DNA of 64,000 nucleotides from an uncultured Planctomycetia bacterium (GCA_964527765.1 CAZGQR010000010.1:1680-65679), one strand, 5' to 3'. Numbered from the stretch's first letter, positions 3,215 to 55,858 are shown. Notes: generated by a model not told the origin, from the sequence alone. Numbers and translations: made by a program.

Positions 3215-3408
3215 AACTATCTCCTTTGTTTATAAGTAGTTATCTAATATTTTTCATATTTACCAATATTTAACCAGATTACCCAGATATTAAGAGTTTA
3301 AAAACCATAAAATTTATCCGATTTTCTTAAAAAAATAGCAGAAAATATACGATTTTAATAGAAAAAAAGCATGTATGTTAAGTTATAAAAAATTTAGAAA
3401 ACCCACAA

Positions 3409-3439
3409 TTGACATTCTCCCCATGTATGTTATTATAAT
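3409..3439 (+). promoter_or_regulatory. Sigma70-like promoter candidate for the 29.7-kb gene, inside a 489-nt strongly AT-rich leader
   Basis: TTGACA at 3409-3414 and TATAAT at 3434-3439 with a 19-nt spacer, which is slightly long. An 11-mer CATGTATGTTA is directly repeated at 3370-3380 and 3422-3432, flanking the -35. Confidence 0.4.
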
Positions 3440-3576
3440 TATACTTAATAAATAAAACAAAAAGCCAGACACTATTATGTTTTATAGACCCGAAGGCGGA
3501 TCAGCATAAAACAGGCAGGGATTTTTGTTATCCGGGCAATTTTAATTATTTAATAAGTAGCATATCTGAAGGACAT

Positions 3577-15500: not shown

Positions 15501-18500
15501 CGGTAAAAATTCTTATGGTAAAGCCCTCAAGATATTAAAGAATGAGCTGGGGATAAGAGAAGAGCCGGGAGAGGTTACGGAGAAAACGATTCTGGAAAGG
15601 TTCAGGCGAGGCAATATTAAGTGGGCGGATGCCACGAAAAAGGCAAGGAGACATCTTGTAAAGATCCTGGCCGGAGAAGTCGGCAAAAAACCTGCAGGCT
15701 TGCTCGTTTCGGATTTCGGCAAAGAAATCGGAACATTCGGCAATAAACGTCTGGTCGGCCTTTTGGAATTTTACATGAGGGCCGATAATCTTTCAGGCGA
15801 AGGCTCTACAGTGGAAGCTCTCCGGGCCCTGAAGGCGGATCTTGGTATAAAAGATTTTACAGGTTTTAAGGCGCCAGGGCCAGCAGTATTCGCGATCGGG
15901 GCATTTATCGCGGCGTTTTTCGGCAAGCCCGCGCTTTTGTCCGCGACGGAAACATACAGCTTAAGTAGGCTTGCGCTGTCCGGCTTTGCAGCCCATCCCA
16001 TGCTTGCTCCGCCATACTGGGGATTTTTATTGCCCCTTCTGTTGGTTTTCCCCGCTCTTATCTCATTTCTTAATTATATAAAGCCCGCGCCCGAAAGCGG
16101 CAGTTTACCTTGCAGAATCTATTCTTTTCTTAAAGCGCGATCTGAGACCACGGACCGGTTCTTTGGCGCAGAGAAGATCCAGAAAAATATAGAAGGCAGG
16201 AGGCCGTCTCTTAAGGATATAAAATATGTTTTGGGAATACTGGTCGATCTCGGCCTTGTCGAACTGAGAACAAAATGGCACGATGAAGTATATAGATGCA
16301 AAAATCCGCGCTTAAGCCCCGATAAGCACAGAGCCATAGAGAACGTTCTGAATAACCTCGGCGAAAAATTCGCTCCGGAAGAAAAAGAACAGGCGCGGAA
16401 GGAACTTGAAAGGAACGATGTATATACAGATACCGGTAAAGGGTACAAATTTTCCGCGCATAATATAACCGATGATTCTATAAAAGCATTGCAGTTCTCC
16501 AGCGAGAATCTCGGGGAGTTTACCCGGATCTTGGACGATTTTGTTGAGCCGCCAGGCGCTAAGCTCAGCACCGGAAGGCGGCGGGAACTGAAGCAGAATC
16601 TGGAGGATGTTTTACCCTGCGTTGAAAAGATCAAATCGCTATTGAGAGGACTGGGAAAAAGGCAAAGGAAGAACCCGGATGTAATCTGGATCGCTCACGA
16701 TATACATCTCATGGCCATAGATTGTTGCGAGTCTCTCGGGGCAATAATCGGGAACCTGTCCCCGGAAGGAAAAGATAAACAGGGAGAGGGACAGTACGTT
16801 AAGGCAAAAGCCGTTCTCGCAAAACTCCGCTTGATCGACGTCAGAGACTTGAGTAGCGATATAATCCTGGCGAAGGCGGGCTCTCCGCTGAAACGGAAGA
16901 GGCCCGTTCCCGCTGCAAAAGAGGTCGTAGAGGAGATCGAAGAGTCAGACGACGATGACAGTTTACCGGGCGAGGACAGCAGTTTATCGCGGAAGACCGC
17001 TGGATCTGAAGCCCCCGCAGCCACATTTCCAGAGGAAACCGTTGGGTCCGGGGAGGAAGCCGCTAATGAACCGGACAAGGTTCCGGAAATCTCTCAGGAT
17101 GAGTCACCGTCTCAAAAGTTATTAAAGGCCTATAGGGAAATATTAAGAGAGGGTCATAAGCCCACATTAAAGGAACTTGCCGGGAAGCTCAGAGTAAGCG
17201 CTGAAGAGGCGAAAGATGTGCTCGCGCAGGTGAATCTTGAGCTGGGGAAAGCCGGCATGCGGCATCTTACGGTTGAACCGGACGTAAGGCGCGATCTGGC
17301 GGGTCTCCGGGCGGAAGATCCAGACAGGATGCTGCAGGAATACATAAGAAGGGGCAAGGTTATTGAATATGTGAGAGATGAAAGTACCGGGAAATGGCTG
17401 GCGTACCGGTTGAAGTATATTGCAGGCCGGAGCTGGAGGGTGAGAGGAACATCAGAAGAAAGGATCCCGGTCCCGGGACGCGATCTGGACAAAAAGCAGA
17501 ACCGGACACTTAATAGCGTGCTCAGAAATCAGTTCAAAAAACTGAAACTTTCCGATGATAAGATGCCTTCCTTCTGCGTGATGCTCGGCAAGACGGTCAT
17601 AGGATGGGGCGGAGGAATAGAGAAATGCAATATTCTTCATACCGGTTACAGGAGGAAGAGGATATGGATCGGGGAGCATCTATTCAACGATTTCTTGCGG
17701 CCTAAATCCAGCCAGCGCGCGGCAGCCCTGGAAGAAGAATTAAAACATATTAAGGACAGGGATCATGCGGATTCTCATGATGCCGGATACAAGAAGCTTC
17801 TGGCGCGCGTGCTGGAACATGCCAGGAAACTGGATGAACTGGCCAGGGCCCTGACCATGGAAAAACTGAGGTTCGTTAAAGATCATGTCGCCGGATGGGC
17901 ATTTCGTTCTTCGATCAAGACTCACGTGGAATGCGGGAATTTTAAAGAAGCGCTGGAACTTGCGAGGATACTGGAAAGAGTGACCGGTGATTACCACGCC
18001 AAAGAGATCATCGAGAAGATCAAGTCTTTTATTGACTGGAAAAAGACGAAGGAGCCGGAATTAAGGGCCGCAAGAAGCGAAAGACAAAAAGGTAAAGGCA
18101 AGTTGTCCAAGGCAGAACTAAGGGCATTAGACTCAAATGTCAGGAAGCTGGAAGGTCAGAAGAGAAGGATCGAAAAGGCAAAAAGAAACCTGGATCCATT
18201 ATTCAACGGATTGAGGCAATGGATGCCCAGATATATAGATAAGTCGTATTTCGGGGAACTTGGCGCGGCGGATACAGGTACGGTAACAGCGCTGTCTCTT
18301 CTGAGCATGCCGGTCTTGACGCTGCTCTCCGTTTCAGATGAGATCCAGGGGCTGGTGATCGTGCTTGTGGTGCTGACACTGATAGCTACCAGTACGGGAA
18401 TATTGGTCTATCGTGCGATTAAGTGGGCTATCCGGGGCATGACGGGGCAACCGCAGCGTCAGGGTACGCTGAAAAGCTTATCGGAAAGCGCCCCGGAAGA

Positions 18501-21500
18501 CATGCCGGAAAAGACATCGGAAAGCACGGCAAGCATGCTCGCCGATGAAATATTTTCCATGTATCCGGAGGGGTTTGCCAAAAGCCATGTCGGAAGGGTA
18601 ATAAGGATCGCGGATCTTCTGGTCCGCGAATTGGGCCTGTTAAAAAAACGCGCCGTTAAGGTGAAGATCCTCGCGGCAACACACGATTTCGGGTCACCGG
18701 TAAAACCCGCAAATAAAGAGATGGCCGACAGAGTACGGAGGATATTATTGCATAAAGGCGTAAATATTCCTAAAAGAAAATCAAGAGATCTGGCTGAATA
18801 TGAGCGCTTGCGCACATTATTCAAGGTGAGAAAAGACGAATTTGATCCCAGAGAGATCGAGATCGCCCTTGATGCATTCCAGGCCCCGCACACTTTGCGC
18901 GCTCTTACGGAAACGGGGTTCAGATTTTCAAGTTTTGTCAGGGTAATAATACTTTTTCACCATCACCTTAGAGAGCTGGAAGCTTTCATGGATAGCCAGG
19001 GCTGGCCAGAGGAGGAAAAAGAAGAAATACGCCTGATCGCTTCGGTCCTCGTCGCGGCGGATGTCGTAGAGAACGGCATGAACCTGTTCAAAAGGATTTA
19101 TTTCAAAGGTGCCGACAGAGCGGAGACCTCGCAGGAAACACTGGATTTTCTGAAGGAAAAGAGCGGCATAATGAAACGCGAGGTCATTGGCGCGTATCAA
19201 GCCCTGATAGACCGCAATGACCGGGAATTGGCATCGATAGCGAAAGATGCCAGCGTTTTTACTCCGCAGGAAGAGGAAGCCCTGGAACAGGCCGGCCTTT
19301 TCCCGCAGGCTCAGCGGCGGGCGCCGCCAGAACATTCTTTCAGAGCGGTCTCCGGTTTCCGGGCGAGCATTTTGATGCTCACCGTGGCCCTTCTTGGCAT
19401 GTTCGGCGGCGTGCTTCAGCATATTATACAGGGCGATATCACGGCTATAACATTTTTTGCGGTAGCCGCTTTCTTATATTTCAGTATTGCAGCAATAAGA
19501 TATTTTCTACTTGGATCAGAGACACGCCAGGCCTTGATCAAGGAAGGTGTTTCTCCCAAAGAGGCTAGCAGGCGGTACATTGCCAGGTCCGGAGGGTACC
19601 GACATCCTGCCTTTAGCGAAAACGAATTTCCGTTCTGGTGTCAGCGTCTTGTAAATATACATGAATCCTACCAGAGCCATTTCTGGGGCATGGTCTTTAT
19701 CATGCCGCTTTTTTATAAGATCACACATCTTGGAAAGAGGGGCGCTCTTTTGAAAAGGGAGAGAGAGCTTCTGATGCAGAGCAGTTTCGCCTATCTGGCA
19801 GAGACCTTGAGAGGTCTGAGGGGACAGGAGAAACCCAGGCCCGGCAAGGACCCCTGGAGGAGTACTAGTATAAGTGGCGCTCCGCGGCTGTGCAAGAGAT
19901 GGAACTCCGAACGTCCCAGGGATGCGGATCAGAAAAAAGCCAGGAGAAGAAAGGACAGAGCCGCCAAAGGAACAAAGGTCATAGCCAGAAGGGGATGGAA
20001 ATTCAAATCAGAAATGAAACACGGCCTTTTTCCGTCACAGGTAGAAGCGGAGATAATGGAAAACGTGGGCCAGAGCGTTCTGGACAAGGCGTATTACCAG
20101 GATGCATTTGGCATGTTGAGCAACCTGCCCGGCGAGAAACTTTTATGGACCAATGAAATATCGGCAGACAAGAACAAGAATCTGCATTTTCACCTGTTTA
20201 AGCTGGGGAACCCCTTACCGATCGAAGAATATGAGCTTGAACCATTGTGCAGGGACCGGGATGATGAGAGCGTGATATTCAAGGTGCGCGGATATCCGGA
20301 AGAGAATAATCCTATTGCCGTATTTGCGGTTAAAGGGCGCCTGGACAGTCCGCACAACAGGAGCCTGGTAAGCGCAAGGTGCTGTAACATAGAGGAGATC
20401 ATAAGGAATAACGGTTATACCGTGGATAAGGTTATTACTGCGGGAAAAGAAAAAGAGGTAACAGTTTTCTTTTTTCCCAGAAGGAGGGGGTACGCGCAGT
20501 TCTTTTCAGAAGGGGAACTGGAATTGGTCGGCCCCCTGGCGATGAGCGGAATATGGACCCTTCCGGGCCGTAAGGAATACAAGGATTTCGGTCTTGATAA
20601 TATTCAGGATGTTTTTTCAAAAGTGGGAGTTGTTCGCGAGAAAGGCGAGAGACTCGAGCAAATGTGCAGCGAAATAGAGAGGAATTTCCACGAGACGGAG
20701 GGCACGGGCCTGCTTCCGCCGAGCGTGTACTTCAGGGTTCTGGATTTTGATATGAAGGAAAAGGAAGAACACCCGGAAAAATTGCAGATCGTGGGCGTAG
20801 ATGAAATAGTGAAAAAGGGCGCAGAGGAAGGAATGCCTGTAAAACTTTTGGACGTGTCTGAAACACAGAAAAAGATAGTGGATATCCTGTCCGAGAAAGG
20901 CGTGAGAAGGATAAATTTTGTTCCCGATCTGTCCGATGAAGGCCTTGAAAGCATGGAAAACTGGGGTTCGATCGTAGGTCTTCTTGAATATGCCAAAAGA
21001 AAAGGCATGACCACGGTTCTTTCTCTTCAGGATTTCGTGGCCAGGAGCAGGAAACTTGAGGAGAATCTGCCTTCCATATATCTGGCTGTTCTGCCGTTCG
21101 TGGATAAGATCTCTTTTGAAGTAAACAGCAAGAACGGCCACTTTGAAAAAATGCTGGAACAGATCAAAAGATATTGTTCGACCAAGACCATTGAGATCTA
21201 TACATATGTTACGACCCAGAACCAGTACGAGATAATCGCTTTGGGCGAATTATTCCAGGAGAAACTGTCCGACGTAAAAGAATTTGAATGGGAAGTAATA
21301 CGCGATCCCGAATCGGAGTCGGCGATAAACGAAAAAGATTACGAGAGTTTGACCGCCCAGATGCGCGTGAGATACCCCAATTCCCGCGATCAAAAAACCA
21401 GCATGAAGATCAATTATGTCCTGTTCGGAAGAGAGGCGTCGAGCCTGTATGTGTCCGGCAACGGAAGCCTGGGTACAATGGAAAAAGGCGAGATACGCGC

Positions 21501-24500
21501 ATTTGCCGATCTTCGGGATCAAAACATGCTTGAGACCAAAAATGTCCGGGACAAATTCAGGATTATAATCGACAGGGTACGCGAACTATCCACTTATATC
21601 CCCAGAGAACTTCCTGCAGCGGCCCGTGAACGCGTACACGGAGGCCTCATAAAGGACATAATGAAGATGTACCCGAGGCTCGGACTATCCGATCTTGTTT
21701 CTCACGTTCACAGGGAAATAGAACTTGCGGAGGAGATAGCCGGAAGGATGGGGCTATCGGAAGAGAAAGTGCTTACCCTGAAACTTGCGATACTCGTGCA
21801 CCATCTGGGCCATCGTTCCAGGGTAGGCGAATACAGGGATGAGTATATTAAGATCAGGTCCGCAATGCGGGAAAAGTACCCCGGCGATAAGAGTAAATTA
21901 TGGCATATCCAGGATGCGGTCAGGGATCTATTGGAAGAAAAAAATGTTAAGAACGTTCCGAGAAATATGAGATTCGGAATTTTTTGCAAAGCGATAGGCG
22001 GACTATTAAAGGAAAAGGGGCTTAACAGTAAAGACCATCTTAATGAAACACAGGCGATGATAGTCCGGTCGATATTCAATATGAGGGAATACGCGCTGAA
22101 TGTATTTGAGGGTCTCGATACAAGTCTTTCGGATAAAGCGAGCGAAGATATGAAAGCGTTATTTGAAACCGTTCCGGAAAGCGTAAAGAGGGACGTGAGA
22201 ATGCTGCTCAAGTATTACGGCAGGTACCGGGAGTTCAGAGAGGAACTCCGGGAGGACGAAGGGCTCATCCGCATGGAATCGTCCATTTCTCCTGAAAAAA
22301 TGAAGCAGCTTATTTCGATAATCAGAATATCAAGCACATTTACCAACAGGCTGGACAGGACGGTCCGGGCGGAACTGCGAAGGGAATTAACTGATTCACT
22401 CTCCGAGGCGATAGAATTCATCATTAAGGATATCGAGCTGGAAAAAGAAGAAGGCGAGGAAACCCTGGAGGCCGTCAGTGAGCTGCTTAACGTGCTTAAG
22501 GACTTCGGGAGGGATCCGCGTATTTTGGGCGAGCTGAATAATCTGCTTGACGAGAAGGGCGGGCAACTGAGGTATAAAAACAGCATGTTCTTGAGATATC
22601 TGAACTCCGACGTTGATCTGGCACCGGATAACTGCAAGGGGGTAATAAGAAATTATCATGATTATGAGGAGGGTATTACCATAGGAACATATTACAGGTG
22701 GTCTACATCATGCCTTCGGGCCGGTGTTTTTGCCGGGGTCATGGCCGTAATCACGGGTTATGGTCCGGTGGTATTTCCCGGCGTTTTAGTTGTTCCTTTG
22801 GCTTTGTGCAGCGTTTTATTGCTTTTCTCGAGTTTATGGTTTTTCCTGATAGCGGAAAGGTGCAAGGAAGCCTACGAGGTGGGGTTCGTCGGGAGATGGC
22901 ATGAAATGCTTATTGATGGCCTGGCAATCAGCGCGTATCGACCCGATGAGATCGTTCAGGCGGCGAAGGAACTCGTTGATAAAAATCCTGAAGATGGAAA
23001 GAACAAGGCGGACATATTTCTTGAACAAATGGCCGATCTGACGGGCGAAAAGGTATTGCTGTTCAAAGAACGCCGGATAGCGGAGCTGATCCATAAAGGC
23101 TTGCTTGAAGACGCGGAAAAAGAAGGCAGGGGAGGAGAGTATCTTAAACTGGCGGGAAAATTGTTGAGATGGAAATACCCCGATGACGAAATCAAAGTGA
23201 GGATCAAAGAGCATGTGCAAACGAAAAAGGACCCGAATGAACTGTGGGATATATATGAATTTCTCAGCCTGCATATCACTGAAAAGATCTTCTCGGATGT
23301 CCTGTTCAGGCTGATGACCGTAAAGGTCCTTGATGAACCAAATACCGAATTAGAGAGCCTGGAAAAGGCAGCCAGAGATGAACTTGAGAAACGGCTCAAA
23401 ACAGAATATGCGGAAGCTTATGCCGAAATAAGAAAGTCATTATGGGGCAGGGGTAATGTCAGTAAAAAGAAGATCCATAAGTTTATATCCGAGTATCGCA
23501 AGCGCAGTGAAGCAAGACCGTACAGGGTTTTGAGAAGAAAAGAAAGATATGCGATTTTTCTTGAAGCAGCGGCTGAAAAGATGGGTAAAATTGAGCTGAG
23601 CGACATTGAAAAAGACATAGCCCGGGCGATATTCAAAGGACGTGAATGCACAAAGAAGGACTTTGAGAGAATGGCCTCCCGTCGGATACATAAACAGGCG
23701 TCGGAGCGCGTCATAGCCAGGCGGCGCCCGCATTTCGGCATTCTTGAGATCACGGATTATAACGCGTTTTCCATGTTGCCAACTGTGGTTAAAAAAATAA
23801 TAGAATTGCAGGATCTATATGAAAATCAGGACAAATGCATGCTCTGTTCATCTTTTCCATGTTACCGCTATTATACCAGTGAAAGGTCAGTGGCAAAATG
23901 CCTGAACGAAAGACTTATTGATGACATGCCGATGGCCAGAAAAGAGACCCTCAGGTTCGATAGGAGCAGGAAAGAACAGTTTGAGCTTAAAGGAGACACA
24001 TGGGAATGGAAGGAAGGGGACGGAATAGCGCTTGTAGGGGATATAAGCAAGGATCTGAAAGATGCTATCGGCGAATTACAGGAAGAGCTGAAAAAGAAAT
24101 TCAGCACCGGGAGATTGCAATTAACACCAAAAGATGAGCTCCATTTTACCGTAGCTATAATCAGGGATAATACCGCAGGCCCCGTTAAAGATACGGAAGA
24201 AAAGGAAAGAAAGGCCCTTATAGAAAAAACAAGGAATATCGTGATAAAGGCCCTGGCCGAAAGAAAAGTCGGTTTAAAGGTGAGTTTCAGCCTGAAACAT
24301 GTTGTTCTTAATAATAATGCCGATATCATTCTCATCGGCGAAGTGAGCAATCCCCTGCTGAACTATGTAAGGACCAGCATGAGGGAGGATCTGGATGCGG
24401 TCAAAAAAGATATAATTCACGTGACGATAGGAAGGATATTCGACAGGGACATAGAAGGAGATGAGGTGGGAATACTGACGAATATAATAAAACGGCACGG

Positions 24501-27500
24501 AGATGACAGAAAGTTCTCTTTTGAGGTCGGCGGCGTAAGGAAGGAATTTTCAGATCTGTGCCTGCATATCTTTGACCAGGCACAGGAAGGACAAAAAGAA
24601 AAGTACCGCGCGATCGAGATCCCGGGATACGCACAGCGCCTGATGAAGGAAAAACTGGAAACCCCTGAAAAGAAAAGGCCGATCAGCAGGATCGTAAGTT
24701 TATTCAAGAATATCCTGGATGATGTCAAATTCCTCCTGCGGCCTTATTTAAAGAAGAAGTTAAGGTCGTTCCGGAAGGCGACGAAACAAGCCGGCTCGGA
24801 AAAGACTTCCCGTGATCTAAAAGGCCCGAAAGCCGAGGAAACTAACCCTTTGATACAAAATCTTATAAGGGAAAATAAAATAGCCGAGGTCTTCGTGAAA
24901 GAAGGGCGCCTCGCAGCTTATCCCGTTAACTTGGTTGATGGTTACATGCCCGGGGGGGCGCATGAGGATCTTTTCGGGGACCCGATAGATATCGATGAAT
25001 TATTTAGCGCGGCACAGCAAAAGAACATAATGGACTGGATACGAGAGCATCGGCCCCCCGACGGCAAAGACTGGCAAGTTCGTTTTCGCATATTATTGGG
25101 CGACACTGCGCTTGGATGGAAGGATAACGCAGAACACTCCATCATATCCCATGCCGGATACCACGATAGATGTATCTATATAGGCCAGCATTTGCTCGCG
25201 TCCTTATTTGATTCTCCCGACGATCCTGTCCGAAGAATGCTTTTGGACGAGGATGAATACAGACATCTGACAGACATACATTTTGACTGTCGTGCCGACG
25301 AGGCGGCCTACAAAAAAAGATTGGAAGCTGTTGGCGAACGCATCAGGGAAGTCGCATTAAAGGTCAATATAAAGAAAGTCATGGAGAAAGATGTTCTCGG
25401 CAGGGACCTGGTCGGGTATCAGAAGCTGGGTCCGGAAAATGTCCTGGAAGCCGAGAAGAACGCGAAAGAATTCATCGATACCATTTATAAGATCATACGA
25501 GCCGAGGGTAAAACATTCAGTGACAGGGAAAGCCTGGCCAGGTACCTCAGGCGAAGGTTCGGCATACGTAAGTTCATCATTGCCGGCGGTAAGGGAACGC
25601 GGTTCTCTCCCGACGGTATAGTGGTCAAGCAGAATTTTAAACCGGATAACTACAATACCAATATAAAACAATCCAGGAAGTCGGCTGCTTTCGGGAAACT
25701 TGAAGATGTGGTCGTCATCGATACCGTGACCGCTTTTCACATCCTCAAGGAAGACCTCAAGATCCCGAAAAAGATGAAAAAGGACATGCAGGCGAGGCTC
25801 GGGTCCGTTTTTAGCGATCTCGTCAAAGCCGGGGTCGTCGAGAAGAACAGGAGCCGGGACCTGTGCGCCGCTATAGGCAGGATTATCGAGGAAAGCGCGG
25901 ACCGCACGCGCCGCCCCGACGGCCTGCGGGATCTGGCCATGGTGATGAGCATGGCGGCGGAGGAGGTCAGTAAAATCATGGGAAAGGATAATCCCGTGGC
26001 TGAGTTTTTGGTGGATAAAATATCGTACGCCATCTTCAAGGAAGTCATGGCCGAGGACGGTTATGTGGATGACGATAAAAAGGACGAGCTTTTCGGAGAT
26101 GACTGCATAGTGATCCTTGATTCCGGGGAAGGTCACGGCAGCGCTTACGTAGAAGCGCTAAGAGAACTGGATGCAATGGGAGAATTGAAAGATGCGCGAT
26201 ATTCCGTCATTGTTCATGCTGACACGCCGGGGTGGGGTCTTGATAAATACCCGAATTCGGTCTTTATCTCATATCTTAAGACGGTGAATCTCGTATCGCC
26301 GGAAGCGCGTGAACTGCCCAAGGTCACCATAGCGGTGAAAAATCCCATGGATGGCCGGGCCGGGGGCCGCGCGCGTATTTTCATTGACAAAACGGAAAGA
26401 TTCGGAAATATCCCGATGGCTATTAAAGAGTGGAATAATATGACCCCCGATGAACAGCAGGAATCAAATAAAATGGCCGAGGCCAGGGACCCGTACTGGT
26501 TTACGAACGCCAATATATTGATCTGCGATACGGAATGGACACAGAAAAACAGCGATGTGCTCTGGAAAGAATACCGCCATGAGCTGGGCGAAAAGACCAG
26601 GCAGAAACAGAGGCCCCTGGAGCGCTGGACAAGCGATTTTCTCAATATCGCGGCCGCGGAATACGCAAAACGCGTACAGAGGGACCCCGACACCCCGCCG
26701 TTCACGCGTCTTGTATCCATAGGACAGATCGCCCCGAATGCCAATAAAACGCTCCAGCGCGCGCTCGATTACAGGGATGATCTGCAGGAAGAGATAATCG
26801 CGAAAATAAAGAGGCTGGGCGTTGAAGTGGATAAGGACGTAACAATAGCGATTTCCGGAAATGACGTGGGGCCGGGTTTCGACCTGGATGAGGTCATCAG
26901 GAATATTTTTGGCGACGACGGGAACGAGGGAGCAAAATTCGGGAATACCAGGCTGAAGGGCAATATCCATCTCGGCAGTGAGGTAAGGATAGAAAAAGGA
27001 GCCCGGCTGGACGGCACAAGGAGATGCGTGTCGCTTACCGGGAAATGTGTCGTCAAAAGCGGGATCGAATTGGACGGGGTCGTGTCCCCGAATGGTGCCA
27101 GGAAAATAGAAGATACCTGGATATATGACGAAAATGTCTTTTACAAGCACACAAAAACGCGCATAACAGGATTTCCGTTCCAGGACGGCAGAACCATAGA
27201 GGGGGCAAGGGTCCGGAACGTGAATTTCAGTGAAATCGGACTTATTGCTGATAAGAGCACCAAAGTATATCTTGTCAGGGAAGACAGAAAAGAGGAGCGC
27301 CGGAAAGCCGAAGAAGAAGTATGGCGCAGGATCAAAGCGGAAGGAGGAAGAGAATATCCCGCAGAGAGAGCGGTGGCGTACCTCAATTATGCGCGCGGGA
27401 TACTGGTTCCCGTGTCGAATGAACCGGAGTCCAAGGCTGTCCGCAAGAAGATCGATATCGCCCGTGCATTTGCGGAAGCCGCGCTTGACATAGATAAAGA

Positions 27501-30500
27501 CAATGGGGAGGCGCGCGATCTTCTGGCCGAGATAGAAAAGCTTGAAACAACGGTGATCCTCAGGAATATTTTCGGGAATGAACGCTACGGCCGAAAGGTG
27601 ATAGACCAGATATTCCTGTACGGGGAGATCACTCTGGACGAAACGGCCAGGGTCGAGAACGGGACCATGCTTGACGGCCGCGCGGGTGAGATCGTTCTTC
27701 TTGGCCAGACACGCGTGCAGAAAGGTGTTCATATCAAGGGAGTCAAAGCGATAGACACGCGCTTTGCCGGCAAGAAGTATCTTGATATTTACCATTATGA
27801 ACAACCGGCTCATGAGAAAATCGCGTTCTTTAACTCGTCATTTGCGAATTCCTGTGTCGAATATTCCGGAAAGGTCGAGAACTCAACGGTCATCAATTCT
27901 TATATCACCAGCGGCGCGGAAGTGATCGAGTCCGACGTGAAAGATGAGATCGTGGTCGGCGATGATGAAATAATAGGACGGCGCCTGGATGTTAAGAATG
28001 ATATTCTGTCGACATCGATCGAGGCGGAAGAAGGAGTATGTGAATATACCCCGGGCGCTTACCGTCTGGAAGAAAAGATGCCCAGGGACCGTGATGAGAT
28101 CAAGGGATATCAGGTTTCTTACGCCAGGAGGTTATACGGGAGATTTATTGATGACGAACTTATTTTAAACCGCATGCTGGAAGACACGAAACAGTTCCTG
28201 TACAGTAAAGTGATCGACAGGTTCACACTGCAGCAGATCAGGCGGTACATGATCGCCAAGATAATGGAAAATATCAAAGTGTATTATCAGGAACGCGAGC
28301 CCGATCTCCTTAAGGACTTCCGCCCGCTGGTAAATAATCTCAGGGCTTACGCGGAAATACCCATGAAAGACATAGCGGAACTGGATGCCGGAGACAAAGC
28401 GCGGGCGAGAGAGCTGTTCCGAAAAATGGCAATACAGGCGATCCGTTCCAATATTATAGATTTTTCCATGGATCCGAAAGCCTTTGACCTGGAGCTACTG
28501 TCGTCTGCGGGCAGCGGTGAAGGCAGGAACTTTGAAAAGTTTCTTGATAAATATACCAAAAAGGAATTGGGGATCGACGGCTTCGATCACTTCGAAGAAA
28601 TGGTCTTCGGCCCCCGCAAAGGAACCTTTTTGTTCTTCACGGATAACATCGGAGAGGCAGAATTTGACGCGTTGATATGGGGATTTCTTGCCAAAATGGG
28701 GCACACCGTGGTTGTTGCGGCAAAAGACGGGTTTTCCTTCGCGGATATCGATAACAAGGGAGTGGAAAGCATTGTAGAAGAGCACCCCCTGCTGAGAGAA
28801 TATAGAAATGCCGGCAGGATCAAAGTCGTCAAAAGCGGTTCCTTATCCGAGGGCGTTTTCCCTCATATGTTCGGCGAAGAACTTAGGGACGTTCTTAAGG
28901 ACAAGGGACTGATGGCGATCATTGCGAAAGGCCAGGCAAACCTATTCACACTTTCCGCCCGGAACAGGATCAAGGTCCCGGTTGTCGCAATGCTGCTGTC
29001 TAAATCGTTGACGTCGAATCTGGTGACCGGGATTTCTCCGGAAAAGGACAAGGACAAAAAAATCTTCTGGCCGATCGCAGCGGTGGTTCCGGGAGGAGCC
29101 AGTATAATGGACTACGAAGGGGAATTGGGTAATTTCGAGGGGACCATTGAACGGTTCGGCAGGCTGCACGAAGAGATCAAACGGACCAAAGAGTTGGATT
29201 ATTCCGAAATACCGGAGATAGCGGAAGGCCTCCTGGAGAGCAACATAAAGAGCGGTTTTCTAAAAAAAGAATACCGGAAAGGCGTAGCTGAGGAACCGGT
29301 GGAAAAAGGAGCGCCGATATACAAACTGTTGGACAGGTCGGACGACCCTTACGTCCAAAAGATAAGAAGTATTTTAAAGCTCAAGAAGGCATTCGCCTGC
29401 ACTTTATGCAGGATCCCGTATATGTCCAGAGAAGCCTCCAGGTCCATTACGAAATACTGGGAATTTTCTGTTAATCCCGAACCCGTGTTTGATTCGCAGA
29501 TCATCGCGATCCACCGCAGGCACATAAATCAGGGAGCGGTCAATGAGAATTACTATTTTGACATGTTTCGGATATTGGAGAACCTCGGAGAATGGCAGGT
29601 AAGCTGGCCCAGCAGGACCGGGACCAGGTTCCCGGAACATCTGCACGCGCACATGTTCAGACGGGAACGCCCCATGCCGGTAGAAGAGTATTCACTTGAA
29701 CCCATTTGCCGGGACAGGAAAGGTAAAGGTGTGGTTTATTCCGTAAAAGATTATCCGGACAGGGATCATGCCATAACTGCTTTTGTTGTCCCGGGAAGCA
29801 TGGAAAAGCCCGGTATATTTGCAAAGAGGTGCGCCGATCTTGAGACTATAATAAAGGGTTTTGGATACGATGTAGATAAGTTTATCACCAGAAGCAAGGG
29901 AGGAGAATTTAAGGTCTTTTTCTATCCCAGGATCGGCGGGCTCAGGAGCGATGTGGGGCCCGTTGACGTGAGCGGCATCTGGGTCCTCTCGAGAGAAGAA
30001 CAGTACAGGGATTTCAAGTTAGCGGATGTCTACGATCTTCTCTCGGAAACCACACTCAATATGTACAGTGCCAGTCACCAATCATTGGCTGATGCCGTCA
30101 AGAGACTTTTTTATGAATCCGAGGGCATAGGCCTCTTTCCGCCCAGCATGGACCTGCTTGTGACCGATAGGTGCAATCTGCATTGCAAGGTGTGCTGGGG
30201 GTCGTTCATGCCCAGGCACGAATCCGTAGGCACGGAAAAGCAGAAAAGGATGATAGATATCATGCATGAGAACGGTATGAGGCGTATGATCTTCACGGGC
30301 GGCGAGCCGCTTCTTGAAGCAAATCTGGCGGACCTGTTAAAGCACGCGAAGGAAAAAGGCATAACCACGCAGCTGTTTACGAACGGCCTGTTGATGGATG
30401 AGGCAAAAACCGATGAGATCATGCCGTACGTGGATATGATATCATTGTCGCTTGACGGGTATGATGACCAGACAAACAGCCTGAACCGAAAGCCCGGCCA

Positions 30501-33264: not shown

Positions 33265-33361
33265 AATGATAATACGTAAGTCCAGTTCATTAAACAACTT
33301 ATGATAAAAAAACAGAACGCAGACGTAATGTTAAGGTATAAAATAGTTAGTATGTGTCCAG

Positions 33362-33472: not shown

Positions 33473-36400
33473 ATGATAGGTGATGGATTCAAAAAATCCC
33501 TGTTCTTCAGGATAGTGAACCTTTTTCTGGTATTTACATTCTCGTTCTACAACATAAGTTTTGCCGTCACGGAGAAGAATGTCAAACCGTCCGATTTTGC
33601 GGATCCCCGGTCAGCTTTATCCGTCGATGATATAGGTATCGCTATCGACTGCGGTACCATAAAAAGTAAATATTCCGGTGATTCCGGCAGGACGGTCGTG
33701 CACATACAGGACGCTCACTGTAATTACGAAGCCCAATCCAATATAAACAGGATGCTGGCACAGCTGACGAAGGAATGCGGGATCAATATCATATCCGTAG
33801 AGGGTTCAGAGGGGATCATCGATACCGCGTGGTTCAGAGCTTTTCCTGATTCGGAGATACGCAAGGAAGTCGCTACTTATTTCATGAAAAAAGGCGAGAT
33901 CACCGGCGCCGAGTTCTTTTCGATCATTTCAGACTATAAAGGCACCATTTTTGGCGCTGAGACACGGGACTATTACGTGAAGAACCTGAAAGCCTTTACG
34001 GAAGTATATCCTTATAAGGATATGATGGAGAAATATTTTATCAACACGCGCACGATAGCCGATCGTTTAAAATCAATAGTTTATCCTCCCAAATTAAAGG
34101 AACTGGATTCCAGGATAAAAGCGTTTGATGACAAGGAACTGGAATTAAGTGATTACGCCGATTATCTTAACAGAACCGCCTCGAAGAACAGGGTCAACCT
34201 GAAGGATTACCCCAATTTCGAGAAGCTGATCCAGACACTTGAGTATGAGAAAAAGATCGATTTTGACATAGTGGACCAGGAGCGGAGCGAATACATCGAT
34301 GCCCTTGGCAAGAAGTTGTCCAAGGAGGAAATGACGGAACTGGTGACCCAGAGTATAAGGTTCAAGAAAGGCCATATAAAAGCGGTGGAATTCTATTTTT
34401 ATCTCAGGGAACTGGCGAAAGAACATGATATTCCCATGATGCAGGAATATCCGAACCTGTTCTATTACTATATCTACACAAAACTCTATGACGGCATAGA
34501 TAACGAGAGCCTGTTCAGGGAGATCGATACCGTCGAGGCACGGCTCAAGGAAAAACTTTTCGGGGACGAGGTCCAGGAGAAACTGGACAAATACGCCTCC
34601 ATGCTCGATATGTACGTGGACCTTGTGAACATCGAGCTGACGAACGAGGATTACGATCTTTTTAAAACCTACTCGAAGGAATTCTCGCTCGGGGATGTAT
34701 TGGCCTTTTTGGAAAAATTATGCGACAAATACAGCCTGAACTACGCCATTGACGGCGTGCCCGCGCAGATCAGCGAAAACCTCCCCAATATGGTCGATTT
34801 CTACGAAATAGCCATGAAGAGGGATAACGCCCTTATCGATAATACCCTCGATCAGATGGACAGGGAAGGAAAGAACAGGTGCGTGCTGATCGCCGGAGGC
34901 TTTCATACGAGGGGCATAAAGGATATCCTTGAGAAAAAAGGCGTTTCTTACGTAGTGGTCACCCCCAAGATAACCAAGGACGTCGAGACCCCTTATATAA
35001 AGGTATTGACCAACCAGAGGACCTCTCTGGAGGATATAATCACCGAAAGCGCCGTCATGCCCGGCCCGGAAATAACGACGTCGCGTGAAGCGATCGCCCG
35101 GCCCAAAGCCGATATGCTTTCTCCCTTGCTCCGCGTGGCCTACACTGTGCCGCTCTATCTCGAGAAGACCGAAGACCTGAAGACCCTTTCGGATACGATC
35201 GGACCGATTGAAGGCAGGACGCTTCTTGAAGTTACCGAGGAATCGTATCGGGAAATGGTCAGCGCCCTTGTAAGGGGATGGCTTGTGAAGGTAAAGCAGA
35301 ATGCGGCTCCGGAAGTATGGGCCAAAGCAGTGGAGAACTGGCCGCTGCTTCTCGGAGTGTACCTGAAGAAATACGAAGAAGCCGCGAAAGAAGAAGGCAT
35401 AGAACCGGCAAAGGGGCTCCGCGTCCCCGAAGTCGTATTGACCGAAGATGCCCTGGGTACCATAAGCGAGGAATTCAGGGGGATATTCAAGGGCGTGGTC
35501 ATAGCAGAAAGGACTACGCCGGGAACGGAAGCGTTGAGAACTTACCGGGGGTACGCGCCTCTTACGCCCGCTCAGCACAAGGGTGTCAATAAGGTGATCG
35601 AAGATCTGTTCAGCTCTGTTGAGAGCCCTCAAGAAACCGTTACACTTGAGATCGAAGGCGAGAAATACCCGATCAAGGTATTCGCGCTCGAAGGTTTCAA
35701 GGAGGCCATTGAAGCATACAATGAAAGTCCCGCTTATGGCGAAACAATACCTCTGGACATAGAAGTCCACCCGGGTCGCGGGCCCTCTCACAGACTGGAA
35801 GGCGCCAGCATGTACATGTCCCTGGACGGTTATAACGCCCTGACAAAAGAGCAAATAAAACGCTTGGCATTACATGAGCTTTATCATATACTTTTTGTAA
35901 GCCAGGGGGAACAGGCTGATGAAGAAGCCGTCATCGGGGCCATGAAAGGCGATGACCTGGATGATATTCGCAAGGAACTTGCCAAGGTTGAAAGAAAAAG
36001 AGCCGAGGAGAAGCTGAAAGTGGAAGAAGATAGAATAATCTCCGAAACACCCGGCGCACGGGAAGTGCTTGACAACATAGGATTTGCCACCAGCGCGGGA
36101 GAAAAGGTCAAGATAGCCGTTGTCGTTTCCGGCAGTGAAGTGGACCAGGAGAACTGGCAGGAAAGGCTTGACCGGACAAGCTCCAACGTTTTTAACCCGG
36201 ACGGAAGTTCGCTTGTCCTTTCACTGCAGGAGAAGATCGGCGACAAGACCAGAGAAGGTAATTTTCTCGGGACACTGCTTGCCTACCGGCATATCAAGAA
36301 AGCGGCCGATAAAGCCGGTATCCCGTATAAGGATTACGTTACCATGATAGGCATGCTTTTCGGACGAGGCGAAAGGATGTCACCCATTACGCAGGCGGAA

Positions 36401-43030: not shown

Positions 43031-43069
43031 AAACGCGATATGTAATACTGGAAGGAGCTTGCGCGGGTC

Positions 43070-43921: not shown

Positions 43922-43933
43922 AGAAAGGAAACC

Positions 43934-45574: not shown

Positions 45575-45595
45575 TAGCAAAAAGGAGGTCGTAAG

Positions 45596-55857: not shown

Positions 55858-55858
55858 G

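What the first reader, a model, noticed from the sequence alone, without database searches (positions are those of the whole stretch)
19995..30045. Large-scale internal module duplication inside the giant gene
Several ~70-200-aa modules occur twice. The HIT-like module appears at 19995-20625 and 29440-30045. An S(Q/R)FQPALNE-containing module appears at ~12925-13290 and ~13770-14100. A CxxLG.T..GW...HxGY....I(W/Y)IG.HL module appears at ~17560-17700 and ~25080-25215. HD-like domains appear at about 18.6, 21.7 and 31.1 kb. Together with the 4 x 99-aa tandem array, this suggests the gene grew by repeated intragenic duplication and shuffling.
Basis: seen in the sequence. Interest (0 to 1): 0.55.

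Follow-up and report, generated by a model that had tools for sequence, protein, structure and literature searches.

The report
Ancient duplicated modules in giant gene
The 9,895-residue gene does contain several pairs of anciently duplicated protein modules, the largest a ~1,040-residue three-domain block with one intact copy and one copy that has lost key catalytic motifs; published work already describes giant membrane-tethered multi-enzyme proteins of the candidate phylum Omnitrophota as built this way, so this is a well-resolved example, not a new kind of thing.

Summary
A self-comparison of the 9,895-aa ORF (3577-33264) gives 39 off-diagonal HSPs at E<1e-5, against none in 10 local shuffles.

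The "HIT-like" pair is the start of a much larger duplicated block of ~1,040 aa: linker, GalT-branch HIT-like domain, viperin-like radical SAM domain, HD domain. Copy 2 keeps HxHxH, CxxxCxxC, GGE and H..HD..D. Copy 1 has lost the Cys triad, GGE and the HD dyad, and so have all its orthologues.

All duplications are ancient. Ks is saturated (pS 0.56-0.91), and nucleotide similarity survives only in the tandem array, the hairpin motif and two short patches. Both block types already exist in homologous 5-6 kaa proteins.

The gene belongs to a family of Candidatus Omnitrophota giant proteins. They share conserved N- and C-terminal modules, carry variable enzyme cargo separated by hydrophobic hairpins, and often sit in tandem paralogous arrays.

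Two preprints already describe repeated domains and ancient duplication in Omnitrophota giants. I rate this a new member of a known kind.

The parts
3577..33264 (+). Giant ORF, 9,895 aa, with an RBS-like AAGGA before the ATG
   Evidence: promoter-like site 3409-3436 matches 11 of 12 positions
3595..3660 (+). N-terminal hydrophobic segment (aa 7-28), either a signal peptide or a membrane anchor
   Evidence: hydropathy scan; the same feature is present in the 2800-aa neighbour
3661..5406 (+). Family-defining N-terminal module (aa 29-610), function unknown
   Evidence: 28% identical to the N-terminus of the downstream 2800-aa protein; 36-54% identical to homologues; no PDB match; a weak Tiki/ChaN hit in 2 of 7 members
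6124..7536 (+). Extra Pribosyltran_N-like domain (aa 850-942) followed by a PRPP-synthetase-like domain (aa 990-1320); the two N-type domains are internal paralogues
7555..7704 (+). Hydrophobic hairpin motif, copy 1 (aa 1327-1376; (F/Y)SF(L/M)(P/L)LAFLPF..VPGL)
   Evidence: 74% nucleotide identity to copy 2
8563..9306 (+). NagB-like glucosamine-6-phosphate deaminase domain (aa 1663-1910); no internal paralogue
   Evidence: E 2e-50 to PDB 2bkv; Pfam Glucosamine_iso
9349..9501 (+). Hydrophobic hairpin motif, copy 2 (aa 1925-1975)
12835..13287 (+). S(Q/R)FQPALNE module, copy 1 (aa 3087-3237)
   Evidence: 30% identity, E 2e-16 to copy 2; no Pfam hit
13699..14103 (+). S(Q/R)FQPALNE module, copy 2 (aa 3375-3509)
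14110..14262 (+). Hydrophobic hairpin motif, copy 3 (aa 3512-3562)
14701..15864 (+). Tandem array of 4 x ~99-aa basic units (aa 3709-4096)
   Evidence: 45-57% aa identity; 65-70% nucleotide identity; Ks 1.1 to undefined; not detected by TRF
17290..17832 (+). Module C, copy 1 (aa 4572-4752; GW..H..SH(A/T)GY..IYIG motif)
   Evidence: 30% identity, E 2e-14 to copy 2; homologues in the sample carry only the copy-2 type
18421..19344 (+). HD domain a (aa 4949-5256), with an intact H..HD..HHH..D pattern, flanked by hydrophobic hairpins (18277-18420 and 19345-19515)
19537..22719 (+). Block 1 (aa 5321-6381): linker, HIT-like domain (19996-20781; NLHFHLF), degenerate radical-SAM barrel (20782-21609; no CxxxCxxC, no GGE), degenerate HD b (21610-22719; HD replaced by HH, last Asp lost)
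   Evidence: bracketed by hydrophobic hairpins here and in P0010, P0011 and P0013
22720..22860 (+). Hydrophobic hairpin closing block 1 (aa 6382-6428)
24811..25353 (+). Module C, copy 2 (aa 7079-7259), conserved at 41-48% identity in homologues; fold unknown
   Evidence: AlphaFold model pLDDT 74 with no PDB match
26893..27804 (+). Repeat pair at aa 7773-7852 and 7994-8076; the same pair is present in homologues
28279..29004 (+). ARMT1-like (DUF89) phosphatase domain (aa 8235-8476); no internal paralogue
28924..32034 (+). Block 2 (aa 8450-9486): linker, HIT-like domain (29458-30168; HLHAHMF), viperin-like radical SAM (30169-31005; CNLHCKVC, GGE), HD c (31006-32034; H..HD..D)
32035..33261 (+). 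Family-defining C-terminal module (aa 9487-9895), function unknown
   Evidence: 46% identical to the C-terminus of the upstream gene; conserved to the last residue in homologues; no PDB or Pfam match
1..3087 (+). Upstream family member. The frame is open from base 1; the gene carries PEP-utilizers_C plus the family C-terminal module and is probably the tail of another large paralogue
33473..41875 (+). Downstream family member, 2,800 aa: family N-terminal module, PGM/PMM I-III, PMI; it lacks the C-terminal module

Best explanation
The ORF is a real gene of a Candidatus Omnitrophota bacterium. It belongs to a family of very large, membrane-tethered multi-enzyme proteins. The family has a conserved N-terminal hydrophobic segment plus a ~580-aa module, a conserved ~300-400-aa C-terminal module, and between them a variable string of enzyme domains separated by hydrophobic hairpins.

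The repeated modules are true paralogues. They arose by old duplications of whole blocks within this family, either inside a gene or by unequal exchange between tandem paralogous genes, and then diverged to 28-57% amino-acid identity.

The main unit is a ~1,040-aa cassette: linker, GalT-branch HIT-like nucleotidyl-transferase/phosphorylase domain, viperin-like radical-SAM domain, HD phosphohydrolase domain. Block 2 keeps the catalytic signatures. Block 1 has lost the Fe-S cysteines, the SAM-binding GGE and the HD dyad, yet is conserved in orthologues. It therefore most likely survives in a non-catalytic role (scaffold, substrate binding or regulation).

Inferred, not shown: the cassette acts on a nucleotide or nucleotide-sugar. 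It would do so alongside the sugar-phosphate enzymes fused in the same protein and its neighbours (PRPP-synthetase-like, NagB-like, PGM/PMM, PMI, PEP-utilising domain), possibly fed by the mannan-uptake cluster immediately downstream.
For: Shown:
- Off-diagonal similarity far exceeds chance.
- The block aligns colinearly over 559 columns at E 3e-63, and the alignment extends on both sides by profile-profile comparison.
- Ks is saturated for all pairs, and nucleotide similarity is almost gone.
- A search of 1.84 billion representatives with the two-copy profile finds 22 proteins at E<1e-30. Most are 2-6 kaa, and several have two matched stretches.
- Homologues P0010, P0011 and P0013 carry both block types, each orthologous to one of the window's copies.
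- In NJ trees the copy-1-type clade is recovered in 181 of 200 bootstraps for the radical-SAM part and 133 of 200 for the HIT part.
- CxxxCxxC is absent from all 9 copy-1-type instances. The HD dyad is replaced by (H/Y/C)H in all 7 HDb-type sequences.
- P0013 has a colinear ~1,800-aa internal tandem duplication.
- Family genes occur in tandem here and in L004, which carries 6,059-, 5,675- and 7,892-aa genes side by side.

Taxonomy: SmpB in the window is 79-87% identical to proteins named Candidatus Omnitrophota, and homologues P0014 and P0016 are annotated Omnitrophota.

Domain identities:
- Radical SAM: best matches are viperin 5vsl, NF038283 at 90 bits and PADLOC pVip at 101 bits, E 1.7e-29.
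- HIT-like: AlphaFold model pLDDT 90. The top Foldseek hits are HIT-fold or GalT-like proteins: 4qvu, 2pof and 1zwj, prob 0.96-1.00.
- HD profile: best PDB hits are HD-GYP phosphodiesterases.

Literature: Omnitrophota long proteins commonly repeat Pfam domains, and their nucleotide tandems have 'dissolved' (10.64898/2026.06.07.730766).
Against: - The split of copy 1 plus copy 2 from all stand-alone radical-SAM relatives is recovered in only 95 of 200 bootstraps.
- The tree alignments were fitted to a profile built from the window's own two copies, which biases branch lengths.
- The duplication cannot be localised to this gene rather than to an ancestor or a neighbouring paralogue.
- No expression or proteomic evidence exists for this protein.
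- Topology is unresolved. An N-terminal signal-like segment followed by even-numbered hairpins would put ATP- and SAM-dependent domains outside the cytoplasm, which is implausible, so the hydropathy-based TM calls may be partly wrong.
- 'Loss of catalysis' in block 1 is inferred from motifs only, and its HIT motif (NLHFHLF) may still be active.
- The functional reading (nucleotide or nucleotide-sugar tailoring) rests on domain family resemblance. Operons around stand-alone relatives of the radical-SAM domain contain no HIT or HD partner, only His_Phos_1 phosphatases.
Confidence: 0.8

Rival explanations
1. Independent fusions. The paired modules were never duplicated as blocks; already diverged stand-alone HIT, radical-SAM and HD genes (and the other modules) were fused into the giant gene separately and ended up in the same order by convergence.
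For: - Stand-alone ~280-aa radical-SAM proteins are close relatives of copy 2: P0020-P0029 score 144-188 bits against the block profile.
- In the NJ tree they are not cleanly outside the copy 1 plus copy 2 group; that split is recovered in 95 of 200 bootstraps.
- Additional HIT, radical-SAM and HD lineages exist in the family.
Against: - Four consecutive segments (linker, HIT, radical SAM, HD) align colinearly between the two blocks.
- Stand-alone relatives have no HIT or HD neighbours, so the three-domain arrangement is known only inside this family.
- P0013 shows an unambiguous ~1,800-aa block duplication of the same cassette.
Confidence: 0.1
2. Recent, ongoing intragenic expansion in this lineage. 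The gene is currently growing by tandem duplication, the literal reading of the first reader's proposal.
For: - A head-to-tail 4 x 99-aa array.
- Three copies of a hairpin motif that keep 74% nucleotide identity over 66-75 nt.
Against: - pS is 0.56-0.91, with Ks above 1 or undefined for every pair, including the array and the hairpins.
- TRF finds no nucleotide tandem.
- Independent assemblies carry an identical 9,895-aa gene, with 0-1 mismatch in 18.4 kb, so there is no copy-number variation among the sampled strains.
- The second repeat pair (aa 7773/7994) is already present in P0010, P0011 and P0014.
Confidence: 0.04
3. Defence reading. Block 2 is a prokaryotic viperin-type antiviral module that makes chain-terminating ddh-nucleotides, fused with nucleotide-processing domains (HD, 2H/LigT, PRTase-like). 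The giant protein would then be an immune effector rather than a metabolic enzyme array.
For: - PADLOC pVip models hit aa 8861-9101 at E 1.7e-29, covering positions 8-226 of 262.
- The best PDB match is viperin and the best NCBIfam model is viperin_w_prok.
- A weak ShosT (PRTase) hit at E 2e-4.
- HD and LigT domains are common in nucleotide-signalling defence systems (background knowledge).
Against: - The NF038283 score of 90 bits is half the curated 180-bit cut-off.
- The domain is fused to a sugar-nucleotide-type HIT domain and sits among sugar-phosphate enzymes, next to a mannan-utilisation cluster.
- No other defence-specific partner was detected.
- The module is a conserved core of a whole family of giant proteins rather than an island gene.
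Confidence: 0.1
4. Artefact. The giant ORF or its internal repeats result from mis-assembly of paralogous genes, or the ORF is a non-functional relic.
For: The sequence comes from metagenome assemblies, and tandem paralogous genes could in principle be collapsed or chimerised.
Against: - The neighbouring 2,800-aa gene is found on nine contigs in several sources, and its near-identical variant on three more. For the two loci compared, the last 9.8 kb of the giant gene is identical.
- The internal copies are only 42-63% identical at the nucleotide level, far too diverged to mislead an assembler.
- 29.7 kb without a stop codon at ~49% GC cannot be chance (inference).
- Homologues keep the same module order at 40-65% aa identity, which implies purifying selection.
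Confidence: 0.02

Closest known systems
Omnitrophota very long proteins, 'multi-enzyme metabolic cluster' class (Nielsen & Lui 2026, bioRxiv 10.64898/2026.06.07.730766)
   Same: - Same phylum.
- Hydrophobic membrane segments.
- Many unrelated enzyme Pfams in one polypeptide, including radical SAM, PGM/PMM, HD, HIT and TPR.
- Domains repeated within a polypeptide (65% of their catalogue).
- Repeats are old and their nucleotide tandems have 'dissolved', exactly what searches show here.
- Glycoside hydrolases in the flanks.
   Different: - 9,895 aa is just under their 10-kaa cut-off.
- My term searches of that paper turned up no description of the conserved N- and C-terminal modules, the tandem arrays of paralogous family genes, or a motif-degenerate paralogue of a three-domain cassette. 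I did not read the whole paper.
- No secretion or pilus genes flank this locus within the window.
Archaeovorins (West-Roberts et al. 2023, bioRxiv 10.1101/2023.11.21.568195)
   Same: - Omnitrophota giant proteins with many predicted TM helices.
- An N-terminal region without identifiable domains next to a signal-like segment.
- TPR, radical SAM and pyruvate-phosphate-dikinase-type domains.
- Ambiguous topology.
   Different: [quoted passage not shown]
- None of these was detected here at Pfam E<=0.01.
- This protein is about three to nine times shorter.
Viperin / prokaryotic viperins (pVip; RSAD2, PDB 5vsl)
   Same: The copy-2 radical-SAM domain has CxxxCxxC and GGE. It matches pVip HMMs over ~220 of 262 positions, and viperin is its best PDB match.
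   Different: - It scores below the curated NCBIfam cut-off (90 vs 180 bits).
- It is fused between a HIT-like and an HD domain inside a giant protein.
- Its closest relatives are an uncharacterised clade of ~280-aa stand-alone enzymes.
- Copy 1 is not a radical-SAM enzyme at all by motif.
GalT-branch HIT proteins (DUF4922 / DUF4931; ADP-glucose phosphorylase At5g18200, PDB 1zwj; CDP-diacylglycerol pyrophosphatase, 2pof)
   Same: - A confident model (pLDDT 90) has these as its top Foldseek hits, prob 0.96-1.00.
- A histidine-triad motif is present: HLHAHMF in copy 2.
- DUF4922 matches 4 of 18 family instances, best E 4.8e-7.
   Different: - TM-scores are only 0.40-0.47.
- There is no sequence-level PDB match.
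- The window's own copies fall below the Pfam gathering score (21.5 and 14.7 bits against a cut-off of 23.6).
- The modelled segment starts at aa 8628 and may miss N-terminal strands.
Modular megasynthases (type I PKS / NRPS), as an analogy for growth by module duplication
   Same: Very long polypeptides built from multi-domain modules that evolve by block duplication, divergence, domain inactivation and recombination between neighbouring paralogous genes (background knowledge).
   Different: There are no carrier-protein, KS/AT or C/A domains. The modules here are separated by hydrophobic hairpins, and nothing suggests a covalently tethered intermediate.

Membership tests
Omnitrophota giant multi-enzyme membrane-anchored proteins (Nielsen & Lui class 1) | Encoded in a Candidatus Omnitrophota genome | tested here: met
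   SmpB at 55402-55857 is 79-87% identical to proteins named Candidatus Omnitrophota. Homologues P0014 (MFH1846285.1) and P0016 (MBD3380105.1) are annotated Omnitrophota.
Omnitrophota giant multi-enzyme membrane-anchored proteins (Nielsen & Lui class 1) | Length of at least 10,000 aa (their catalogue threshold) | tested here: not met
   9,895 aa: 105 residues short of an arbitrary cut-off.
Omnitrophota giant multi-enzyme membrane-anchored proteins (Nielsen & Lui class 1) | Signal peptide and/or TM helices | tested here: met
   The Kyte-Doolittle scan finds an N-terminal hydrophobic segment plus seven internal hydrophobic stretches of 38-67 aa, read as TM hairpins. The topology itself is not testable here.
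Omnitrophota giant multi-enzyme membrane-anchored proteins (Nielsen & Lui class 1) | Many distinct enzyme Pfams, with no single Pfam dominating | tested here: met
   Pribosyltran_N, Pribosyltran, Glucosamine_iso, TPR, LigT, ARMT1-like, DUF4922, Radical_SAM and HD.
Omnitrophota giant multi-enzyme membrane-anchored proteins (Nielsen & Lui class 1) | Repeated domains whose nucleotide tandems have decayed | tested here: met
Archaeovorin (West-Roberts et al. 2023) | Gene above 90 kb with a consistent set of glycosyl transferase, methyltransferase, glycosyl hydrolase, peptidase and NUDIX domains (often SecA_DEAD and HEAT as well) | tested here: not met
   The gene is 29.7 kb. None of these Pfams is found at E<=0.01; there is only a weak TreT_GT1 hit at 19.8 bits against a cut-off of 27. 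Definition taken.
Viperin / pVip radical-SAM enzymes | CxxxCxxC cluster motif and GGE SAM-binding motif | tested here: met
   Copy 2 has RCNLHCKVCWG and FTGGEPLL. Copy 1 lacks both.
Viperin / pVip radical-SAM enzymes | Score at or above the curated family cut-off (NF038283, 180 bits) | tested here: not met
   90.4 bits.
Viperin / pVip radical-SAM enzymes | Match to the PADLOC pVip models | tested here: inconclusive
   PDLC02904 scores 101 bits, E 1.7e-29, over positions 8-226 of 262. No curated cut-off is given, and the C-terminal nucleotide-binding part of the model is not covered.
Viperin / pVip radical-SAM enzymes | Converts CTP, UTP or GTP to 3'-deoxy-3',4'-didehydro-NTP | not testable with these tools
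   Needs an enzyme assay.
HIT superfamily, GalT branch | Histidine-triad motif HxHxH/Q | tested here: met
   Copy 2 has HLHAHMF. Copy 1 has NLHFHLF: the first His is lost, the middle and last are kept.
HIT superfamily, GalT branch | HIT-like alpha+beta fold | tested here: met
   Model pLDDT 90.3. Foldseek gives 4qvu prob 1.00, 2pof 0.99, 1zwj 0.96, plus HINT1 and aprataxin partial matches; TM-scores are 0.40-0.47.
HIT superfamily, GalT branch | Pfam DUF4922 at or above the gathering score | tested here: not met
   Copy 2 scores 21.5 bits, or 14.7 bits for the trimmed segment, against a cut-off of 23.6. Copy 1 has no Pfam hit. 4 of 18 family instances match, best E 4.8e-7.
HD phosphohydrolase superfamily | H...HD...D metal-binding pattern | tested here: met
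   Met in HDa and HDc. Not met in HDb, where HD is replaced by HH and the last Asp is absent, nor in the HDb-type orthologues.
HD phosphohydrolase superfamily | Pfam PF01966 at or above the gathering score | tested here: met
   HDc scores 27.6 bits against a cut-off of 22. HDb scores 13.4 bits and HDa has no hit. All three are linked by profile-profile comparison at Prob 96.5-99.7%.

The most novel reading that the evidence does not exclude
The family is a natural 'cargo carrier'. A fixed N-terminal module (signal/anchor plus a ~580-aa domain with a faint Tiki/ChaN-like signature) and a fixed C-terminal module flank interchangeable enzyme cassettes bracketed by hydrophobic hairpins. These cassettes are duplicated and swapped between tandem paralogous genes.

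Within it, a motif-degenerate HIT / radical-SAM / HD cassette (block 1) has been kept for a long evolutionary time as the dedicated non-catalytic partner of the active cassette (block 2), forming an intramolecular pseudoenzyme-enzyme pair. My term searches of the two Omnitrophota preprints found neither point described; I did not read either paper in full.
Probability: 0.25. Interest if true: 0.65.

Novelty: new member of a known kind. Interest (0 to 1): 0.35.

Why it matters
Omnitrophota giant genes are among the largest known, and neither their function nor their mode of evolution is understood. This 9.9-kaa example is small enough to dissect completely, and it gives three concrete results:

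- A duplication unit can be resolved: a ~1,040-aa, three-domain cassette. The copy-1-type cassette is bracketed by hydrophobic hairpins here and in three homologues.
- The duplicates are old and have diverged asymmetrically: one copy is intact and the other has lost its radical-SAM and HD catalytic motifs.
- Shared terminal modules, a shared 23-nt upstream element and tandem paralogous genes offer a plausible route for module exchange.

These give testable handles on how such genes are built: express block 2 alone, test block 1 for cluster binding, and map topology. The general phenomenon is already published, so the value lies in the detail rather than in any conceptual surprise.

Tried and rejected
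**Searches that failed or found nothing**
- The search for homologous proteins with the whole protein or its second half failed: too long, then timed out.
- The same tool with block 1 and with the SQF-plus-tandem-array region returned nothing. The exhaustive representative search shows that relatives of block 1 exist, so these nulls reflect the word prefilter and are not evidence of absence. For aa 600-5268 I therefore have no information on homologues beyond the 150 proteins retrieved.
- The genome-contig scan with block 2 found only two distant radical-SAM genes, in a Chitinophagaceae and a betaproteobacterial MAG. The source genome is apparently not among the GTDB representatives.

**Modules that stayed unidentified**
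- Module C: a moderate model (pLDDT 74), but no PDB fold match (best E 1.6) and no Pfam hit.
- N-terminal module: no PDB match. Its only lead is a PF04187 (ChaN/Tiki) hit at E 0.08 in 2 of 7 members, plus my own reading of the motifs. I treat this as a lead only.
- C-terminal module: nothing in PDB or Pfam.

**Ideas tested and dropped**
- I asked whether genes next to stand-alone relatives of the radical-SAM domain encode HIT, HD, module C or the terminal modules. They do not; His_Phos_1 phosphatases recur instead.
- I asked whether the downstream 2,800-aa protein has a diverged C-terminal module. It does not (best score -2.1 bits).
- I considered a large segmental duplication S1 (C, HIT/rSAM, HD; aa 4572-6381) vs S2 (aa 7079-9486). 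The three anchors are colinear, but three items fall in the same order by chance 1 time in 6, and the intervening sequence is unrelated, so I do not claim it.
- I tried to measure dN/dS on the giant gene using the closest strain. The sequences are identical, so there is no signal.

Full report
**The object**

The window contains one uninterrupted ORF at 3577-33264 on the + strand, 9,895 aa. A promoter-like site at 3409-3436 matches 11 of 12 positions, and an AAGGA ribosome-binding site precedes the ATG. All large genes in the window are co-directional and the sequence is purine-skewed.

The neighbouring 2,800-aa gene occurs on nine contigs from several public sources, and its near-identical variant on three more. 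For the two loci I fetched, the last 9.8 kb of the giant gene is identical to the window. The ORF is therefore not an assembly accident.

**Checking the observation**

I cut the protein into 300-aa chunks (step 150) and compared them all-against-all with BLASTP.
- There are 39 off-diagonal HSPs with E<1e-5, the best at 169 bits.
- Ten shuffles that preserve local composition never produced an HSP below E 1e-3 or above 31 bits.

- S(Q/R)FQPALNE pair: aa 3087-3237 vs 3375-3509, 30% identity, E 2e-16.
- GW..HxGY..IYIG pair ("module C"): aa 4572-4752 vs 7079-7259, 30% identity, E 2e-14.
- 4 x 99-aa array: aa 3709-4096, 45-57% identity.

The three "HD-like" regions needed more work.
- Pfam recognises only the third (27.6 bits against a cut-off of 22). 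The second scores 13.4 bits and the first gets no hit.
- All three hit the same segment of a homologue, P0014 993-1286.
- Profiles built from their respective orthologues align over about 240 columns at hhalign probabilities of 96.5-99.7%.
- The alignment shows the H...HD...D signature.

- A proline-rich hydrophobic hairpin motif, (F/Y)SF(L/M)(P/L)LAFLPF..VPGL, present three times.
- A second Pribosyltran_N-like domain in front of the PRPP-synthetase-like region.
- A repeat at aa 7773-7852 and 7994-8076.

In total about 3,950 residues, or 40% of the protein, have at least one internal paralogue.

**The main duplicated unit is much larger than reported**

The HIT-like similarity continues without a break into a 559-column alignment: aa 5474-6011 vs 8628-9143, 28% identity, E 3e-63.
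- Profile-profile comparison extends it about 150 aa upstream, through a linker with a shared HFWGM motif (Prob 97%).
- It also extends downstream through the HD domains.

The unit is therefore a cassette of about 1,040 aa: linker, HIT-like, radical SAM, HD. Block 1 is aa 5321-6381 (nt 19537-22719) and block 2 is aa 8450-9486 (nt 28924-32034).

*HIT-like domain.* An AlphaFold model of the HIT-like part of block 2, built on 18 family sequences, has pLDDT 90.3.
- Its best Foldseek matches are HIT-fold or GalT-like proteins: the DUF4931 protein 4qvu (prob 1.00), CDP-diacylglycerol pyrophosphatase 2pof (0.99) and the GalT-like ADP-glucose phosphorylase 1zwj (0.96).
- The TM-scores are modest, 0.40-0.47.

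*Radical-SAM domain.* The radical-SAM part of block 2 is closest to viperin.
- PDB 5vsl, E 9e-11.
- NCBIfam prokaryotic viperin, 90 bits, below its 180-bit cut-off.
- PADLOC pVip, 101 bits, E 1.7e-29.

*HD domain.* The HD profile is closest to HD-GYP phosphodiesterases.

**One copy is intact and the other has lost key motifs**

| Motif | Block 2 | Block 1 |
|---|---|---|
| Histidine triad | HLHAHMF | NLHFHLF |
| Fe-S cluster motif | CNLHCKVC | no cysteines at that position |
| SAM-binding GGE | present | absent |
| HD pattern | H..HD..HH..D | HH for HD, YY for HH, no final Asp |

This is not private decay.
- All nine copy-1-type radical-SAM instances in homologues lack the Cys triad.
- All seven HDb-type sequences have (H/Y/C)H in place of HD.
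- These blocks are still 36-51% identical to the window's block 1.

Block 1 is thus a conserved paralogue that has probably lost radical-SAM and HD catalysis. Its HIT domain may still be active. Loss of activity is an inference from motifs.

**Age of the duplications**

- Nei-Gojobori pS is 0.56-0.91 for every pair, giving Ks above 1 or undefined. This includes the 99-aa array and the hairpin motif.
- Self-blastn detects only the array (65-70%), the hairpin motif (74% over 66-75 nt) and two short patches.
- Tandem Repeats Finder detects nothing.
A nucleotide dot-plot would have wrongly suggested that nothing lies beyond the tandem array.

**Relatives**

A profile of the two blocks, searched against 1.84 billion representative proteins, found 22 proteins at E<1e-30. 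Most are 2,000-6,000 aa, and several have two matched stretches.

*Family architecture.* Mapping the window protein onto these relatives shows:
- The N-terminal ~600 aa are 36-54% identical and the C-terminal ~300 aa are 36-56% identical across members.
- The middle is a variable selection of modules.
- P0010 (6,030 aa) is essentially the window protein without aa 600-5268.

*Orthology of the two blocks.*
- P0010, P0011 and P0013 contain both block types, and each is clearly orthologous to one of the window's blocks.
- In NJ trees the copy-1-type clade is recovered in 181 of 200 bootstraps for the radical-SAM part and 133 of 200 for the HIT part.
- The alignments were fitted to a profile of the window's own copies, so these trees are indicative only.

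*Evidence that block duplication operates in the family.*
- P0013 carries a colinear ~1,800-aa internal tandem duplication of the block-1 cassette with its flanking hairpins. This is direct evidence for the process.
- Copy-1-type blocks are bracketed by hydrophobic hairpins in the window protein and in P0010, P0011 and P0013.

*Taxonomy.*
- P0014 and P0016 are annotated Candidatus Omnitrophota.
- The window's own SmpB is 79-87% identical to Omnitrophota SmpB proteins.

**Genomic setting**

The giant gene is the middle of three family members.
- The upstream gene (frame open from base 1, ending at 3087) ends in the family C-terminal module, 46% identical to the giant's, and begins inside a PEP-utilising domain. 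It is probably the tail of another large paralogue.
- The downstream 2,800-aa gene starts with the family N-terminal module and carries PGM/PMM and PMI domains, but lacks the C-terminal module.
- The giant and the 2,800-aa gene share a 23-nt element just upstream of their -35 boxes. It occurs twice in the window against 0 expected.
- In another metagenome contig, three family genes of 6,059, 5,675 and 7,892 aa lie head to tail.

Tandem paralogues with shared ends offer an obvious substrate for unequal recombination. I therefore cannot say whether any given duplication happened inside one gene or between neighbours.

**What it most likely does**

Shown: the protein strings together these parts, with hydrophobic hairpins between many of them:
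- A PRPP-synthetase-like domain (aa 1022-1320) and a NagB-like glucosamine-6-phosphate deaminase (aa 1663-1910, E 2e-50 to 2bkv).
- TPR repeats, a LigT-type 2H phosphoesterase and an ARMT1/DUF89-type phosphatase.
- Three HD domains, two HIT-like domains and two radical-SAM barrels.
- Several modules with no recognisable family.

A mannan-utilisation cluster (GH113 x2, ABC importer, ROK kinase) follows directly downstream.

Inferred: this is a membrane-tethered array of sugar-phosphate and nucleotide or nucleotide-sugar enzymes.
- In block 2, a GalT-type HIT domain would make or cleave an NDP-sugar or NTP-derived intermediate.
- The viperin-like radical-SAM domain would modify it.
- The HD domain would remove phosphate.
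- Block 1 would act as a non-catalytic partner.

I put about 0.4 on this functional reading. Operons around stand-alone relatives of the radical-SAM domain contain phosphatases but no HIT or HD genes, which neither helps nor refutes it. A defence (pVip) reading of block 2 remains possible at about 0.1.

Topology is unresolved. A signal-like N-terminus plus paired hairpins would place ATP- and SAM-dependent domains outside the cell, which is hard to accept. Both preprints report the same difficulty with topology prediction for these proteins.

**Comparison with what is known**

- West-Roberts et al. (10.1101/2023.11.21.568195) defined Archaeovorins on Omnitrophota genes above 90 kb with a characteristic domain set. 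This protein lacks that set and is far shorter, so I do not file it as an Archaeovorin.
- Nielsen & Lui (10.64898/2026.06.07.730766) describe multi-enzyme, membrane-anchored long proteins. In their catalogue 65% repeat a Pfam domain, and nucleotide tandems have decayed while domain architecture persists. That is exactly the pattern here, apart from their 10-kaa cut-off.

The general phenomenon is therefore known. The points below add detail. My term searches of the two papers did not find any of them described, but I did not read either paper in full:
- The resolved ~1,040-aa cassette and its conserved degenerate twin.
- The family-defining terminal modules.
- The hairpin-bracketed cassette structure.
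- The tandem paralogue arrays with a shared upstream element.

**Verdict**

I rate it a new member of a known kind, of moderate interest.

Noticed in passing
window 1-3087: The upstream '1010-aa' gene is open in frame 1 from the first base of the window, so it is cut by the window edge. It starts inside a PEP-utilizers_C domain and ends with the same C-terminal module as the giant gene (46% identity). It is probably the tail of another large family member.
   Followed up: partly
window 3375-3397 and 33328-33350: A shared 23-nt element, ATGTTAAGKTATAAAAWAKTTAG, lies just upstream of the -35 TTGAC box of both the giant gene and the 2800-aa gene. It occurs twice against 0 expected in 100 shuffles. 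This suggests that the promoters were duplicated together with the N-terminal module, or that the two genes share a regulatory site.
   Followed up: partly
window 55172-64000: tRNA-Leu(CAG) lies at 55172-55258 (-), smpB at 55402-55857 and a tmRNA gene at 55859-56244. GC then drops from ~0.48 to 0.38-0.44, and the region carries a MerR-like gene (56539-57027) and a type I restriction R subunit (60367-63153). It looks like a genomic island integrated at the tmRNA gene. ARAGORN's tag peptide (VPAYAGASPLVSALGY) is atypical and was not checked.
   Followed up: no
window 42122-50782: A mannan-utilisation cluster lies directly downstream of the three family genes and is co-directional with them: two ABC permeases, two GH113 beta-mannanase-like proteins (one with an F5/8 type C domain), a CBM27/mannan-binding protein, a ROK-family protein and a solute-binding protein.
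   Followed up: no
L004 (ENA ERZ27252253 k141_468340), 1-37028: Three family genes of 6,059, 5,675 and 7,892 aa lie head to tail. The middle one (P0013) contains a colinear ~1,800-aa internal tandem duplication (aa 1474-3257 vs 3317-5167, 27-44% identity) and also carries Glu/Leu/Phe/Val dehydrogenase domains.
   Followed up: partly
window 14701-15864: The 99-aa tandem units are very basic (K/R-rich). Their conserved pattern (W..T..A..LV...K.P..L...DF) gives a faint Pfam hit to the phage-integrase N-terminal SAM-like domain (E 0.1), so they may be a four-helix nucleic-acid- or phosphate-binding repeat. This was not tested.
   Followed up: no
window 3661-5406 (aa 29-610): The family N-terminal module has conserved IQDxH, IEG, ERNxAM and SGGHH motifs. 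Two of seven members give a weak PF04187 (ChaN/Tiki superfamily) hit at E 0.08. This hints at a Tiki/TraB/erythromycin-esterase-like fold, possibly a protease or esterase, at the start of every family member.
   Followed up: partly
window 3550-4980 (-), 26464-27813 (-) and others: Several long antisense ORFs (up to 476 aa) lie inside the giant gene. Given the strong purine skew of the coding strand, they are probably spurious.
   Followed up: no
L005 4964-9225; L007 3630-8273: Stand-alone ~280-aa radical-SAM proteins, the closest non-giant relatives of block 2, sit in small operons. These operons repeatedly include a His_Phos_1 histidine phosphatase and several proteins with no Pfam hit. This may be an uncharacterised small-molecule pathway.
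   Followed up: partly
tool behaviour: The word-indexed homologue search returned no hits for fragments of the giant protein, although the exhaustive HMMER search finds relatives of the same block at about 50% identity. Null results from that tool for such sequences are not informative.
   Followed up: yes
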